Positions 33,241 through 49,073 of a DNA stretch of 64,000 nucleotides are shown here, piece by piece (the stretch's first letter is position 1; every line of letters begins with the position of its first letter). Location: NCBI GenBank assembly GCA_009914755.4, contig CP086569.2, forward strand, positions 16,128,001-16,192,000, read 5' to 3'. The stretch is from the human T2T-CHM13v2.0 reference genome, Homo sapiens. A model generated the notes under the pieces. The model searched no databases. It was not told the DNA's origin and was given only the letters and a program-made list of their open reading frames with translations. Made by a program: the position numbers and the translations under genes.

Positions 33241-33696
33241 GTAAGGGAGGAGACCACCCCTTATATTATCTTCTGCCCAATTTGTGCCTCCAAAGAAAGG
33301 AGAAGTAAAAACTAAAAGGCACAAATAAATCCATAGGCAGACAGCCCAGCACCACACCCTAGGCCTGGGAGTTAAAGATCAACCCCTGACCTATTGGTTA
33401 TGTTATATATAGATTTCAGAATTGTATGGAAAAGCACTCTGAAAATCCCTGTCCTGTTCTGTGCTGATTATCGGTGCATGCAGCCCCCAGTCACATATCC
33501 TCTGCTTGCTCAATCAATCACAAACCTCTCACAAAGAACCCCTTAGACTTATAAGCCCTTAAGAGGTATAGGAATTGCTCACTCAGGGAGCTTGGTTTTA
33601 GAGACATGAGTCTTGCCAATGCTTCCAGCTGAATAAAGCCCTTCCTTCTTTAACTTGGTGTCTGAGGGGTTTTGTCTGTAGCTCATGTTCCTAATT
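33241..33696 (+). mobile_element. 5' LTR of the HERV-E-like provirus
   Basis: About 85% identical by eye to the 3' copy at 48613-49073. Contains the polyA-signal region aataaagcccttccttctttaacttggtgtctgaggggttttgtctg. Confidence 0.8.
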
Positions 33697-33699
33697 TCT

Positions 33700-33717
33700 T
33701 GGTTCCCTGACCAGGAA
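33700..33717 (+). promoter_or_regulatory. primer-binding site (PBS), complementary to the tRNA-Glu 3' end
   Basis: tggttccctgaccaggaa matches TGGTTCCCTGACCGGGAA (reverse complement of tRNA-Glu ...TTCCCGGTCAGGGAACCA) at 17 of 18 positions. It lies 4 nt after the LTR end. Confidence 0.75.
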
Positions 33718-34304
33718 GCAAGGTGATTAACAAACAGTTGAGGAAGCCCCTTAGGCAGCTTAGGCCTTCCCTGTGGAGCATCCCCATGGGGGACTCCAAC
33801 CAGCTTGAACAACACAGATACTGCGAATGCTCACAGGTAGGCAATTGCTCAAACTATAAAATTGTGTGTGTGCCCTCTTTACTTGCTTTTTGTTTTGTGG
33901 TGTGCATGTTGTGTGAGTGTGGTGTTTTGTCTCCAGGAAACAAAGGTCAGGCACAAAATAACCCCATCCCACAAGGAAATATGATGAAAAATGTCAAAAA
34001 GGGATTTAAGGGAGACTATGGAGTTACTATGATGCCAGGAAAACTTAGAACTTTGTGTGAGATAGACAGGCCAGCATTAGAAGTGGATTGGCCATAAGAA
34101 GGAAGCCTGGACTGGTCCCTTGTCTTGAGGATATGGCACAGGGTAATCTGTAAGCCAGGGCACCCAGATCAGTTCCCATATATAGATTCTTGGTTACAAC
34201 TGGTTTTAGATCCCCCACAATTTTTAAGAGGATAGGCAGCAGCAGTACTAGTAGCAAAGGGACAGTTAGTTAAGGAAGGCTTTTGCTCCACCCACCAAGG
34301 GAAG

Positions 34305-35350
34305 TTGGTACCAAAAGTCCTGTCCAACCCAACAGCAGAAGAATCATGGCAGGAATTGGTACCAGCAGTGCCCCGTCCTTATCAAGAGGGAGGGCTTCAC
34401 ACTCCTGAACCCACAGCACCTCCATGTCCACCAGATATCCACACTCCTAGACCACCAAGAGTAGACAAAAGAGGAAGTGAAGCCATGGGAGAAACTCCTC
34501 CCTTGGCAGCTCACTTATGGCCCAAGGCTAGAATCCAAATGCCCCTGAGAGAGCAGCAATATATTTGGGTAGATGAGGAGAGACACATGGTGGAAAGGCA
34601 TGCCTTTATGTATCAACCTTTCACCTCTGCTGACCTCAATTGGAAGAATAATACTCCTTCTTACACCAAAAAGTCTCAAGCTTTAATTGACTTGCTCCAA
34701 ACTATTATATAGACTGACAATCCTACTTGGGCTGATTGCTACCAGCTGCTCAGCTGCCAGGAACAGACCCCCAATGGGACCCAATCAAGGGACCAAACAT
34801 GGAAAGGCTAAGATGGTACCATGAGGCATTAATAGAAGATCAAAGAAGGGGTTTCAAAAGGCTACAAATGTAAATAAGGTCTCTGAGGTCATCCAAGGAA
34901 AAGAGGAGAGTCCAGCGCAATTCTATGAAAGACTGTGTGAGGCTTACCGTATGTACACTCCTTTTGATCTAGATAGCCCTGAAAATCAGCGCATGATTAA
35001 CATGGCCTTAGCTAGTCAAAGTGCAGAAGATATCAGGAGAAAACTGCAGAAACAGGCTGGGTTTGCATGTATGAATACCTCGCAGTTACTGGAAATAGCC
35101 AATTAAGTGTTTCTGAATAGAGATTCAACAAGCCGCAGAGAAAGCTGTAAGGAAGACGAATGTCAGGCTAGGTGAAATGCTGACTTACTGGCTGTGGCCA
35201 CTAGGGGAATTCCCCCAAAAGAAGAGGGAAAAGGGGGTTCTGGGAAGGATACCCAGTCTAATTGCCCACACTTGCAATGTAACCAATGTGACTATTGTAA
35301 TGAAATAGAACATTGGAAAGATAAGTGTCCCCAAGTGAAGGAAAAGTAAT
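34305..35350 (+). pseudogene. gag remnant (MA/p12/CA/NC) of the HERV-E-like provirus, multiple stops and frameshifts
   Basis: 135-aa ORF at 34305-34712 ends ...MYQPFTSADLNWKNNTPSYTKKSQALIDLLQTII (MLV-like p12/CA junction motif [21 protein letters not shown]). A Q/E/A-rich CA-like region sits downstream. NC zinc knuckle CDYCNEIEHWKDKC at about 35290-35335. Confidence 0.75.
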
Positions 35351-35440
35351 GTGATTCAGAACAAAAGACCTCAGCTAAAGATGAGGGAGCTTTTTTCAAT
35401 CTGGCTGAAGGGCTATTAGACTGAAGGAGACTGGGCTCAA

Positions 35441-46905: not shown

Positions 46906-47400
46906 GTATGGTATTGCTTAAAATAAGACACACCCCTTCTAAGAAAACAGGATAATGCCCTTATGAAATACTGTATCATAGGCCTCCTCCTATACTATGG
47001 GGAATTCCAGGCAGTCCCTGAGAGTTAGGTGGAATTGAATTACAGCGACAGCCACAGGCTTTGGGGAAAATTACACAGACAATCTCAACTTGGGCAAATG
47101 AGAGGTGTCCCATCAGCTTATTCTCTCCAGTTCACCCTTTCTCTCCAAGTGATCACATGTGGATCAAGGACTGGAACGCAGCCCCTTTGCGGCCATGGTG
47201 GAAAGGACCTCAGACCATCATCCTGACCACCCCCACGGCTGCAAAGATAGAAGGAATCCCAGCATGGATCCACCACAGCTGTGTGAAACCTGCAGCCAAT
47301 GAAACCTGGGAGGCAAAACCGAGCCCAGACAACCCCTGCAAAGTGACTCTGAGGAGGACGACAAGCCCTGTTCCAGTCACACCCAGAAGCTGACTGGTCT
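46906..47400 (+). pseudogene. HERV-E-like integrase C-terminal remnant, resuming after the HERV9 insert
   Basis: ..PYEILYH.PPP... then the 110-aa ORF at 47061-47393 ...[48 protein letters not shown]... matches the MLV integrase C-terminus (..W.GPY.VLLTTPTA.KV.GI.AWIHA.HVK.A). Confidence 0.85.
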
Positions 47401-47415
47401 ACGCATGGCTGAAGC

Positions 47416-48595
47416 ATGAGGAGGATCATCATGGGACTCATTTTCCTTATAATTTGGACTTGTTTAGTAAAAACTTCCACTGATTTTCCCCACTTGGAGG
47501 ACTGCTCTCACTGTATACATCAGGTTACTGAGGTAGGGTGACAAGTTAAAAAAATCTTTCTGTTCTAAAGCTTTTATGAATGCCTAGGAAGTTTAAAAGG
47601 AACATGTTTATATAATGACACTCAGTACAAGGTATGTAGCCCAGGAAATGACCAGGCAGACATGGGTTATGAACCCTCTGAACCTCTCATGGCCACAGTT
47701 TTTGAAATAAGATTAAGGACTGAAGATTGATGGGGACTCATAAATGATTCAAGTAAAGTATTAGCCAGAACAGAAGAAAAAGGAGTGCCCAAATGCATAA
47801 TCTTGAAATTTCATGCCAGTGCTGTAATTAATAGCAATAAGTTAGGAAGGGGATGTGGCTCTTTTGAGCTACTGCCAATAAAAACAGGTGAACTCCTGGG
47901 CTTCCCTGTCTATACTTCCTGTGAGAAGAGAAGCATAGCTATAGGAAATTGAAAAGATGATGAATGGCCCCCTGAGAGAATCATACAATATAATGAGCCT
48001 ACTACTTGGCATGGGATGGCTTGTGGGGATACCGGACCCGGTTTTACATGATCAACCAAATCATATGGTTACAAGCTATCTTAGAAATAATCACTAATAA
48101 AACTGACAGAGCCTTGACTATTCTGGCCCAGCAAGAAACTCAGATGAGAAATGCTATCAATCAAAATAGATTGGCTCTTGACTACTTGCCAGCAGCTGAA
48201 GGAGGCATCTGTGGGAAATTTAACTTTACTAATTGCTGTCTACACATTGATGATCAAGGGCAAGTAGTCGAAGACATAGTCAGAGAAATAACAAAACTGT
48301 CACATGTGCCCTTGCAAGTGGGGCATGGATTTGATCCTGGGGCCATGTTTGGAAAATGGTTCCTAGTGCTAGGAGGATTTAAAACTCTTATAATAAAGAG
48401 TTATCATAGTAATAGGAACCTGCTTACGGCTCCTTTGTTTGCTACCTGTACTTCTTCAAATGATAAAAAGCTTCATCACTATCTTAGTTCACCAAAATGC
48501 ATCAGCACAAGTGTACTATAAGAATCACTATCAGTCTATCTTGCAAGAAGTCATGAGTAGTGAGGATGAAAGTGAGAACTCCCACTAATGAGTGA
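47416..48595 (+). pseudogene. env remnant of the HERV-E-like provirus (signal peptide, degraded SU, TM with CX6CC)
   Basis: Begins MRRIIMGLIFLIIWTCLVKTS (signal-peptide-like). The SU region has many stops. The 171-aa ORF at 48006-48521 carries ...[42 protein letters not shown]..., the gamma-type TM immunosuppressive-domain/CX6CC motif. Confidence 0.8.
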
Positions 48596-48612
48596 GGGTC
48601 TCAAAGGTGGGG

Positions 48613-49073
48613 AATAAGGGAGGAGACCACCCCTCATATTGTCTTATGCCCAATTTCAGCCTCCAAAGAAAGAAGTAAAAACTAAAAGGCAGAAATGAAA
48701 TCCAAAGGCAGACAACCCAGAGCTACACCCTCAGCCCAGTAGTTAAAGATTGACCCCCAACCTAACCATTTATGTTCTCTATAGATTTCAGATATTGTAT
48801 GGAAAGGCACTGTGAAAATTCCTGTCCTGTTCTGTTCCATTCTCATTACTGGTGCATGCAGCCCCCAGTCACGTACCCCCTACTCGCTCAATGGATCACG
48901 ACCCTCTCACGTGGACCCCTTAGAGTTGTAAGCGCTTAAGAGGACAGGAATTGCTCACTCAGAGAGCTCGGTTTTTAAGATGTGAGTCTTGCTGATGCTC
49001 CCAGCAGAAAAAAAGCCCTTCCTTCTTTAACTTGGTGTCTGAGAGGTTTTGTCTGCAACTCGTCCTCCTACAC
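48613..49073 (+). mobile_element. 3' LTR of the HERV-E-like provirus
   Basis: Collinear with 33241-33696. Ends ...gtcctcctaca immediately before the ccag repeat. Confidence 0.8.

What the first reader, a model, noticed from the sequence alone, without database searches (positions are those of the whole stretch)
33241..49073. Provirus-in-provirus: HERV9 (LTR12-flanked) inserted in the integrase gene of an older HERV-E-like ERV
Five observations support this. (1) Outer homologous 460-bp LTRs at 33241-33696 and 48613-49073, with a ccag/ccag candidate 4-bp target-site duplication. (2) An inner pair of 1.25-1.27 kb LTR12 copies at 38519-39787 and 45655-46905, with tatg/tatg candidate target-site duplication. 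(3) The outer pol reading frame (..SSGKMEQMNRTIKTNLGK) stops at the LTR12 edge and resumes right after the second LTR12 (..[33 protein letters not shown]), exactly as an insertion predicts. (4) Each element has its own PBS in the expected place: tRNA-Glu-like for the outer, a tRNA-Arg-type 18-mer for the inner. (5) The inner LTR pair looks less diverged (about 8-10% by eye) than the outer pair (about 15%), which fits the order of events. This is a tidy record of two germline retroviral invasions and a likely composite regulatory module. It is probably present in genome annotation but a good curation test case.
Basis: partly seen in the sequence, partly recalled or inferred. Interest (0 to 1): 0.55.

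Follow-up and report, generated by a model that had tools for sequence, protein, structure and literature searches.

The report
HERV9 provirus nested inside HERV-E provirus
This is a real but ordinary genomic fossil: a HERV9 retrovirus copy landed in the integrase gene of an older HERV-E-type retrovirus copy on the human Y chromosome, and both copies are dead and already listed in a published HERV catalogue.

Summary
Window 33242-49072 is a HERV-E-lineage provirus with 453/458-bp LTRs that differ by 15.7%. It has a CCAG/CCAG target-site duplication and a primer binding site (PBS) that matches tRNA-Glu(CTC) exactly.

Its integrase gene is split between the catalytic core and the C-terminal domain by a same-strand HERV9 provirus at about 38520-46905. 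That insert has 1269/1251-bp LTR12 LTRs that differ by 11.7%, 41-bp CCAAT repeats in U3, an Arg/Trp-type PBS and a polypurine tract (PPT).

Removing the insert plus one copy of a 4-bp duplication restores a contiguous, in-frame integrase. Two results show this: an ungapped alignment to foamy-virus integrase, and collinear BLAST to an uninterrupted HERV-E/Harlequin reference.

- Inner LTR divergence is 11.7%, not 8-10%.
- The inner duplication is more parsimoniously CTAT/GTAT than TATG/TATG.
- The inner PBS is Arg/Trp-equivocal.
- The inner provirus lacks integrase and env SU.

The locus matches RetroTector chains 5129 (HERVE) and 5130 (HERV9) at hg19 chrY:17.367-17.384 Mb in Vargiu et al. 2016. 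That catalogue mis-chained the nested structure. Nothing supports a regulatory role. It is a textbook secondary integration: already known, low interest.

The parts
33238..33241 (+). Outer target-site duplication, left copy (CCAG)
   Evidence: Read directly. It is identical to 49073-49076.
33242..33694 (+). Outer 5' LTR (LTR2-type, 453 bp)
   Evidence: Direct repeat with 48615-49072 at 84.3% identity. It is 85% identical (gap columns excluded) to the LTR of Vargiu's Harlequin_6022 representative.
33700..33717 (+). Outer PBS TGGTTCCCTGACCAGGAA (tRNA-Glu CTC)
   Evidence: Position. The 18-mer is listed as an exact E/CTC match and is the PBS of many canonical HERVE chains in PMC4724089 Tables S1 and S6.
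33695..38519 (+). Outer internal region, 5' part: leader, gag, pro, RT, RNase H, and the integrase zinc finger and catalytic core. Heavily mutated.
   Evidence: Pfam hits, converted to window coordinates: Gag_MA 34029-34232, Gag_p30 34635-35112, RVT_1 36108-36554, RNase_H 37332-37658, IN zinc finger 37918-38079, rve 38131-38418 (profile 3-102 of 102). Frame 0 alone has 83 stop codons. Collinear with Harlequin_877 ref 1702-5479 at 88%.
38516..38519 (+).
   Evidence: The uninterrupted references read ..CCTTCCTATGGTATTG... BLAST reference coordinates overlap by 5 nt at the junction, 5475-5479.
38520..39787 (+). Inner 5' LTR12 (about 1.27 kb). Its first base reads G instead of T.
   Evidence: Direct repeat with 45655-46905. 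41-bp x3.1 and 24-bp x3.7 tandem repeats. Seven CCAAT, one TCTGTATCTAGCT-type motif and two GTGGGGA. The U5 end is 88% identical to the HERV9 consensus.
39791..39808 (+). Inner PBS TGGCAACCACGAAGGGAC (Arg/Trp-equivocal, HERV9/HERVW type)
   Evidence: Position. PMC4724089 Table S6 lists it as W/CCA, and the paper states that the W and R PBS are nearly identical, which mainly affects HERV9 and HERVW chains.
39788..45654 (+). Inner HERV9 internal region: long leader, gag, pro, RT, RNase H, GA-rich low-complexity stretch, env TM, PPT. No integrase and no env SU.
   Evidence: Pfam hits: Gag_p30 41865-42131, RVP (weak) 42484-42663, RVT_1 43039-43527, RNase_H 44272-44679, TLV_coat TM part 45057-45404. 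No rve, MLVIN_C or SU hit. GA-rich stretch 44690-44945. PPT AGAGGGGGGGAT 45643-45654. Leader 39772-40134 is 89% identical to the HERV9 consensus.
45655..46905 (+). Inner 3' LTR12 (1251 bp, TG...CA)
46906..46909 (+).
46910..48614 (+). Outer internal region, 3' part: integrase C-terminal domain, an env remnant with about 890 bp of SU deleted, TM, and PPT
   Evidence: MLVIN_C 47133-47294 (E=4.6e-16) and weak TLV_coat 48111-48278. Harlequin_877 ref 5475-6432 maps to 46907-47865 and ref 7323-8471 maps to 47869-49003. TM ORF 48006-48521. PPT AAAGGTGGGGAA 48603-48614.
48615..49072 (+). Outer 3' LTR (458 bp)
49073..49076 (+). Outer target-site duplication, right copy (CCAG)

Best explanation
Two successive germline retroviral integrations on the same strand.

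First event. A HERV-E-lineage gammaretrovirus-like provirus integrated and produced the CCAG duplication. It had LTR2-type LTRs and a tRNA-Glu PBS.

Second event. A HERV9 provirus was later inserted by a retroviral integrase into the first provirus. It had LTR12 LTRs and an Arg/Trp-type PBS. The insertion site lies in the integrase gene, between the catalytic core and the C-terminal domain, and the event duplicated 4 bp of HERV-E sequence.

Both elements then decayed by point mutation and deletion. The outer one lost about 890 bp of env SU, about 300 bp of leader and about 110 bp of gag. The inner one lacks integrase and env SU. Neither can now encode a functional polyprotein.

Shown here: the anatomy, the precise interruption, the duplications, the family hallmarks and the divergence order. 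Inferred: the integrase-mediated mechanism (from the TSDs and LTR ends), the absolute ages, and the absence of present-day function.

The locus corresponds to hg19 chrY about 17,366,584-17,382,414.
For: - Two nested direct-repeat pairs.
- Each pair encloses its own PBS and PPT at the expected distance from the LTR edges.
- Each interior holds retroviral domains in gag-pro-pol-env order on the + strand.
- The outer rve core lies left of the insert and MLVIN_C lies right of it.
- The spliced integrase translation aligns without a gap across the join to PFV integrase: KWIxALPMVLLKIRHTP against KWYDLLPVVQLALNNTY, with top posterior scores, E=2e-15.
- BLAST to the uninterrupted Harlequin_877 representative is collinear. 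Ref 1702-5479 maps to window 34750-38521 and ref 5475-6432 maps to window 46907-47865. The two flanks therefore abut in the reference and overlap by 4-5 nt.
- The uninterrupted references read CCTTCCTATGGTATTG at the site.
- Flanking duplications CCAG/CCAG and CTAT/GTAT (or TATG/TATG) are present.
- The inner LTRs differ by 11.7% and the outer LTRs by 15.7%, p=0.016-0.03.
- The published LTR12 hallmark motifs are present.
- PBS identities are confirmed against published tables.
- Both NC zinc-finger strings, cdycneiehwkdkc and cyqygllghfzkkv, are each unique in the stored part of the table. They identify adjacent chains 5129 (HERVE) and 5130 (HERV9) on chrY.
- The PBS-to-gag-start spacing of 242 nt agrees exactly between the window and chain 5129.
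Against: - No RepeatMasker/Dfam run was possible, so the LTR2 and LTR12 subfamilies are not assigned.
- The inner TSD is imperfect in the register that respects the LTR ends (3 of 4 match). It is perfect only in a register that shifts both LTR edges by 1 nt.
- The outer LTRs start TA.. rather than the canonical TG.
- The divergence difference is only modestly significant. It also compares two LTR families with different CpG content.
- The outer element is closer to Vargiu's Harlequin_877 representative (87-88%) than to their HERVE consensus (80-84%), so 'HERV-E' should be read as the HERV-E/Harlequin lineage.
- No orthologous empty site was examined.
Confidence: 0.95

Rival explanations
1. A single recombinant (mosaic) provirus. 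In this view a HERV-E/HERV9 chimera arose by template switching between co-packaged RNAs and integrated once, as described for Harlequin-type mosaics.
For: Mosaic HERVs with a HERV-E backbone and HERV9 contributions are common (PMC4724089). The outer element is most similar to a Harlequin representative.
Against: - The inner segment has two complete LTR12 copies with its own PBS and PPT. Template switching does not produce this.
- A 4-bp duplication of HERV-E sequence flanks the inner LTRs.
- The inner and outer LTR pairs differ in divergence.
Confidence: 0.02
2. Juxtaposition of three independent fragments by rearrangement or chance: a 5' HERV-E piece, a HERV9, and an unrelated 3' HERV-E piece. 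RetroTector's two-chain description implicitly treats the locus this way.
For: RetroTector lists two overlapping chains and attaches the downstream env to the HERV9 chain.
Against: - The two HERV-E pieces abut to the nucleotide in reference coordinates, with a 4-5 nt overlap.
- They keep the reading frame and spacing of integrase.
- Their terminal LTRs are a matched pair bounded by CCAG/CCAG.
- RetroTector's '46% LTR divergence' for chain 5130 shows it simply missed the true LTR12 pair.
Confidence: 0.02
3. The architecture is as described, and in addition the locus has been co-opted. The LTR12 and LTR2 promoters would act together as a Y-linked regulatory module or lncRNA promoter.
For: LTR12 elements can act as NF-Y-dependent promoters or enhancers (PMC11853044). 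The 5' LTR12 keeps seven CCAAT boxes, a GATA-type motif and a TATA-like GAATAAAA.
Against: - No expression, chromatin or conservation data are available here.
- Motifs are eroded: the 3' LTR has four CCAAT, and the 5' LTR polyA signal is mutated to AATCAA.
- According to the same review, most of the roughly 5000 LTR12 copies have no known function.
- No gene-like ORF lies in the 64-kb window. The long ORFs outside the provirus overlap Alu elements.
Confidence: 0.05

Closest known systems
Secondary integration of one ERV into another provirus (Vargiu et al. 2016, Retrovirology 13:7, Fig. 1c and 2c)
   Same: A second, unrelated ERV sits inside a pre-existing provirus. This is recognised as a common source of 'noncanonical' HERV chains. 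One of their examples is a HERV9 LTR inside a HERVH.
   Different: Their illustrated cases retain only a solo LTR of the invader. Here the invader is still a two-LTR provirus. In their table this locus is not flagged as a secondary integration but is split into two 'canonical' chains, 5129 and 5130.
HERV9 / ERV9 with LTR12 LTRs
   Same: - About 41-nt U3 tandem repeats with CCAAT, TCTGTATCTAGCT and GTGGGGA motifs.
- A GC-rich extension of about 600 nt in the 5' part of the LTR.
- An Arg/Trp-type PBS.
- Gamma-like gag-pro-pol and TM.
- LTR divergence of 11.7%, inside the 9-31% reported for the group.
   Different: - Only about 3 copies of the 41-nt repeat, against the 5-17 quoted for prototypical LTR12.
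- Integrase and env SU are missing, and a 255-bp GA-rich stretch sits in their place.
- The subfamily was not determined.
HERV-E (LTR2 / LTR2B / LTR2C) and its mosaic derivative Harlequin
   Same: - An exact tRNA-Glu(CTC) PBS.
- LTRs of about 455 bp.
- Gamma-like MA, p30, RT, RNase H, IN and MLVIN_C domains.
- A TM with the [10 protein letters not shown]-type immunosuppressive motif.
- 87-88% identity and full collinearity with Harlequin_877.
   Different: - Identity to the published, noisy HERVE consensus is lower, at 80-84%.
- The element carries deletions in leader, gag and env SU, plus the HERV9 insertion.
- The LTR2 subgroup was not determined.

Membership tests
HERV9 / LTR12 | U3 enhancer built of ~41-nt tandem repeats carrying CCAAT (NF-Y), TCTGTATCTAGCT (GATA) and GTGGGGA (MZF1-like) motifs (PMC11853044) | tested here: met
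   A 41-bp repeat occurs about 3.1 times in each LTR. The motifs are present in both LTRs. The 13-mer (one mismatch allowed) occurs nowhere else in the 64 kb. The repeat number is below the quoted 5-17.
HERV9 / LTR12 | PBS of the Arg/Trp type (TGGCGACCACGAAGGGAC and one-mismatch variants) | tested here: met
   TGGCAACCACGAAGGGAC lies at 39791, 3 nt after the 5' LTR. It is listed as W/CCA and noted as equivocal with R for HERV9 and HERVW chains.
HERV9 / LTR12 | Nucleotide similarity to a HERV9 reference | tested here: met
   The LTR U5 end and leader are 88-89% identical (gap columns excluded) to the HERV9 consensus of PMC4724089. Only about 860 nt of the reference were compared. The NC zinc-finger string matches canonical HERV9 chain 5130.
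HERV9 / LTR12 | Dfam/RepeatMasker assignment to an LTR12 subfamily (LTR12, _, B, C, D, E, F) | not testable with these tools
   No Dfam or Repbase library was available. The GC-rich 5' extension of about 600 nt suggests a C/D/E-like type. This is inference only.
HERV-E (HERVERI supergroup) | PBS complementary to the 3' end of tRNA-Glu | tested here: met
   TGGTTCCCTGACCAGGAA at 33700 is listed as an exact E/CTC match in Table S6 and occurs 29 times in the stored part of Table S1. The rows shown are canonical HERVE chains.
HERV-E (HERVERI supergroup) | LTR2-type LTRs | tested here: inconclusive
   The LTRs are 84-87% identical (gap columns excluded) to the LTRs of two Harlequin representatives. 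Vargiu et al. say chains of this kind are mostly flanked by LTR2. No LTR2, LTR2B or LTR2C consensus was available for a direct test.
HERV-E (HERVERI supergroup) | Internal sequence similarity and collinearity with HERV-E references | tested here: met
   Collinear with Harlequin_877 over gag-pol-env at 87-88%, and with the HERVE consensus at 80-84%. Chain 5129 is filed as canonical HERVE by the catalogue authors.
Nested (secondary) proviral integration | The host element is contiguous once the insert and one TSD copy are removed | tested here: met
   The reference coordinates abut with a 4-5 nt overlap. The protein alignment across the join is ungapped.
Nested (secondary) proviral integration | A short duplication of host-element sequence flanks the insert, 4 bp for gamma-like ERVs | tested here: met
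   CTAT/GTAT matches at 3 of 4 positions in the LTR-respecting register. TATG/TATG matches at 4 of 4 in a register shifted by 1 nt. The 4-bp expectation rests on established knowledge of gammaretroviral integration.
Nested (secondary) proviral integration | The insert is younger than the host (LTR divergence inner < outer; orthologous pre-insertion allele) | tested here: inconclusive
   The divergence order fits: 11.7% against 15.7%, p about 0.02-0.03. The orthologous empty site could not be examined because no primate genomes were available in the tools.

The most novel reading that the evidence does not exclude
The nested LTR12/LTR2 array could be a co-opted, male-specific (Y-linked) promoter or enhancer, for example an NF-Y-driven germline or HDAC-inhibitor-inducible transcript start. 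Separately, the inner HERV9 may already have lacked integrase and env SU when it integrated. In that case it would be a record of trans-complemented mobilisation of a defective ERV9 genome.
Probability: 0.06. Interest if true: 0.3.

Novelty: already known. Interest (0 to 1): 0.1.

Why it matters
It matters little biologically. Nested ERV insertions are routine, and this locus is already in a published HERV catalogue.

Its practical value is as a curation test case. RetroTector split it into two 'canonical' chains, attached the outer env to the inner HERV9, and reported a spurious 46% LTR divergence.

The structural nesting also gives an order of events that needs no clock: the HERV-E-lineage integration came before the HERV9 integration on a non-recombining Y segment. 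That order could help calibrate LTR-divergence dating on the Y.

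Tried and rejected
- Rfam gathering scan of the whole window: no hits.
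- Pfam scan with raw DNA references failed because of stop codons. I redid it with stops replaced by X.
- The protein homologue search gave only generic gamma-like pol hits: primate fragments at 70-80% identity and PERV-B at 47%. The names were uninformative or wrong ('group K member 25'), so it could not settle the HERV-E assignment.
- A literature search for a paper on this specific Y-linked nested locus found none.
- A search for the LTR12 5' end (GAGAGGTGACAGC) in the stored part of the consensus file found nothing. The LTR12 5' terminus was therefore taken from the 3' LTR next to its PPT.
- Guessed hg19 coordinate strings for the LTR12 edges were not in Table S1.
- I considered and rejected the recombinant-mosaic and chance-juxtaposition readings (see rivals).
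- I considered a 5-bp TSD (CTATG/GTATG). I rejected it in favour of 4 bp, which fits gamma-like integration and needs no indel.

Full report
**Observation.** A repeat search over 32-50.5 kb returned two nested sets of direct repeats. One has a spacing of about 15.37 kb and lies near 33.24 and 48.61 kb. The other has a spacing of about 7.13 kb and covers 38.52-39.79 and 45.65-46.91 kb.

Global alignment gives these values:
- Outer pair (453 and 458 bp): 380 of 451 identical, p=15.7%, K2P 0.18, and 14.5% without CpG sites.
- Inner pair (1269 and 1251 bp): 1101 of 1247 identical, p=11.7%, K2P 0.13, and 10.3% without CpG sites.

No further copy of either LTR exists in the 64 kb. The estimate for the inner pair (8-10%) was low. 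The inner pair is still less diverged than the outer, with Fisher p=0.03 for all sites, 0.02 without CpG and 0.016 for transversions only.

**Edges.**
- Outer element: CCAG lies at 33238-33241, immediately before the LTR start TAAGGGAGG. CCAG lies again at 49073-49076, immediately after the LTR end ..CCTACA.
- Outer PBS and PPT: the 5' LTR is followed by TTTCT and then TGGTTCCCTGACCAGGAA (33700-33717). The 3' LTR is preceded by the PPT AAAGGTGGGGAA (48603-48614).
- Inner element: the 3' LTR starts TGAGAGGTGAC directly after the PPT AGAGGGGGGGAT (45643-45654) and ends ..GGACACA at 46905. The 5' LTR ends ..AGACACA at 39787 and is followed by CTT and TGGCAACCACGAAGGGAC (39791-39808).

**Coding content.** I used three-frame translations with stops replaced by X.
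- Outer left arm: Gag_MA, Gag_p30, RVT_1, RNase_H, the integrase zinc finger, and a complete rve core (profile positions 3-102 of 102, window 38131-38418).
- Outer right arm: MLVIN_C at 47133-47294 (E=4.6e-16), then a weak env TM hit.
- Inner element: Gag_p30, a weak protease hit, RVT_1 and RNase_H ending at 44679. A GA-rich low-complexity stretch follows at 44690-44945. After that comes only the TM part of env, at 45057-45404.

The inner provirus therefore has no integrase and no env SU. Both elements are riddled with stop codons; frame 0 of the outer left arm alone has 83.

**Is the outer gene precisely interrupted?** Yes, by two independent tests.
1. I joined the left frame (..KWI*ALPM) to the right frame (VLLKIRHTPSKKTG*CPYEILY..) with one copy of the duplication removed. 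The result aligns to prototype foamy virus integrase (3l2q) from the zinc-binding region to the C-terminal domain. There is no gap at the join, and the posterior scores there are maximal.
2. Supplementary file 3 of Vargiu et al. 2016 (PMC4724089) contains an uninterrupted HERV-E-backbone provirus, Harlequin_877, and a HERVE consensus. Both read ..CCTTCCTATGGTATTG.. (or a close variant) at the site. BLAST of Harlequin_877 against the window is collinear. Ref 1702-5479 maps to 34750-38521 and ref 5475-6432 maps to 46907-47865. The flanks abut and overlap by 4-5 nt.

The same alignment maps three outer-element deletions:
- about 890 bp of env SU (ref 6432-7323, at window 47865/47869);
- about 300 bp of leader (ref 375-674);
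- about 110 bp of gag (at window 34750).

**TSD register.** But it forces the 5' LTR to start at GAGAGG and the 3' LTR to end at ACACAG, which needs two 1-nt indels. If the first LTR base is read as a T-to-G substitution (GGAGAGG against TGAGAGG), the LTR lengths stay in register. The duplication is then CTAT (38516-38519) / GTAT (46906-46909), with one substitution. Either way, four target bases were duplicated, as expected for gammaretrovirus-like integration. That expectation is established knowledge and was not tested here.

**Family assignment, inner element.**
- A recent review defines LTR12 by ~41-nt U3 tandem repeats with CCAAT, TCTGTATCTAGCT and GTGGGGA motifs. It also describes a 5' extension of about 600 nt in the C, D and E subfamilies (PMC11853044).
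- All of these features are present, though there are only about 3 repeat copies.
- The LTR end and leader are 88-89% identical to the HERV9 consensus.
- The PBS is listed as W/CCA. The authors stress that W and R are nearly indistinguishable for HERV9 and HERVW chains. 'tRNA-Arg-type' is therefore acceptable but equivocal.

**Family assignment, outer element.**
- The PBS is the exact tRNA-Glu(CTC) motif used by canonical HERVE chains.
- The LTRs are 84-87% identical (gap columns excluded) to the LTRs of two Harlequin representatives.
- The interior is 87-88% identical to Harlequin_877, against 80-84% to the noisy HERVE consensus.
- I therefore call it HERV-E/Harlequin lineage. The LTR2 subgroup is undetermined.
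- The protein search only confirmed a gamma-like pol with primate relatives.

**Locus identity.** Table S1 of PMC4724089 lists the NC zinc-finger string of each RetroTector chain.
- The outer string CDYCNEIEHWKDKC occurs once in the stored part of the table. It belongs to chain 5129, canonical HERVE, hg19 chrY:17,367,042-17,374,557, which has the same PBS.
- The inner string CYQYGLLGHF*KKV, including its stop codon, also occurs once. It belongs to chain 5130, canonical HERV9, chrY:17,373,614-17,384,060.
- With hg19 = window + 17,333,342, RetroTector's gag start for 5129 falls exactly on the mutated start codon at window 33942. The pol range of 5130 matches my RT-RNase H coordinates.
- The window is therefore chrY:17.333-17.397 Mb (hg19). 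This comes from the table, not from alignment to the assembly.

RetroTector did not recognise the nesting. It assigned the outer env (window 46997-48552) to the HERV9 chain and reported a 46% 'LTR divergence' for it.

**Ages (inference).**
- At 2.2e-9 substitutions per site per year, the K2P values give about 41 My for the outer element and about 30 My for the inner. Slower rates give older dates.
- Male-biased mutation on the Y should shorten all of these estimates.
- Published bounds are about 45 My or less for the first HERV-E wave (PMC4379568) and about 30 My for ERV9 entry (PMC11853044).
- The structural nesting gives the order of events regardless of any clock.

**Surroundings.** The window holds 21 Alu copies and none lies inside 33242-49072. 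An old Alu starts 31 bp after the outer TSD. The long ORFs outside the provirus overlap Alu elements, and Rfam found nothing.

**Verdict.** This is a textbook secondary integration, a class that Vargiu et al. describe as common, at a catalogued locus. No evidence bears on a regulatory role. It is already known and of low interest, but useful as an annotation test case.

Noticed in passing
window 44272-45404: The inner HERV9 goes from RNase H (ends 44679) to env TM (starts 45057) with only a 255-bp GA-rich low-complexity stretch (44690-44945) between them. Integrase and env SU, roughly 2.3 kb by my estimate, are missing. This is either a post-integration deletion or a defective genome that was mobilised in trans.
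   Followed up: partly
window 33700-50718 (hg19 chrY:17,367,042-17,384,060): RetroTector chains 5129 (HERVE) and 5130 (HERV9) in Vargiu et al. 2016 overlap and mis-chain this nested locus. Chain 5130's 'env' is really the outer HERV-E env, its PBS call is spurious, and its '46% LTR divergence' is an artefact.
   Followed up: yes
window 1-64000: The window maps to hg19 chrY:17,333,343-17,397,342. This follows from two zinc-finger strings that are each unique in the stored part of Table S1, and from an exact 242-nt PBS-to-gag spacing. Y linkage means LTR-divergence ages need a male-biased mutation-rate correction.
   Followed up: partly
window 33242-49072 versus the rest: There are 21 Alu copies in the window and none inside the 15.8-kb nested provirus. 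From the flank density about 7 would be expected. This fits most Alu insertions pre-dating the ERVs.
   Followed up: partly
window 33695-38519 and 46910-48614: The outer element is closer to Vargiu's Harlequin_877 representative (87-88%) than to their HERVE consensus (80-84%), although they file it as canonical HERVE. RepeatMasker might label it Harlequin-int rather than HERVE-int.
   Followed up: partly
window 47865-47869, 33848-33851, 34750: Outer-element deletions relative to Harlequin_877: about 890 bp of env SU, about 300 bp of leader and about 110 bp of gag.
   Followed up: yes
window 48006-48521: The outer env TM still has a 171-aa open frame (TTG-initiated in the ORF list). It carries the immunosuppressive-domain motif QNRLALDYL and a CX6CC motif.
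   Followed up: no
window 39520-39535 and 46645-46660: The polyA signal in the 5' LTR12 is mutated (GCAATCAATC). The 3' LTR12 keeps AATAAA (46650). CCAAT boxes number 7 in the 5' LTR and 4 in the 3' LTR.
   Followed up: no
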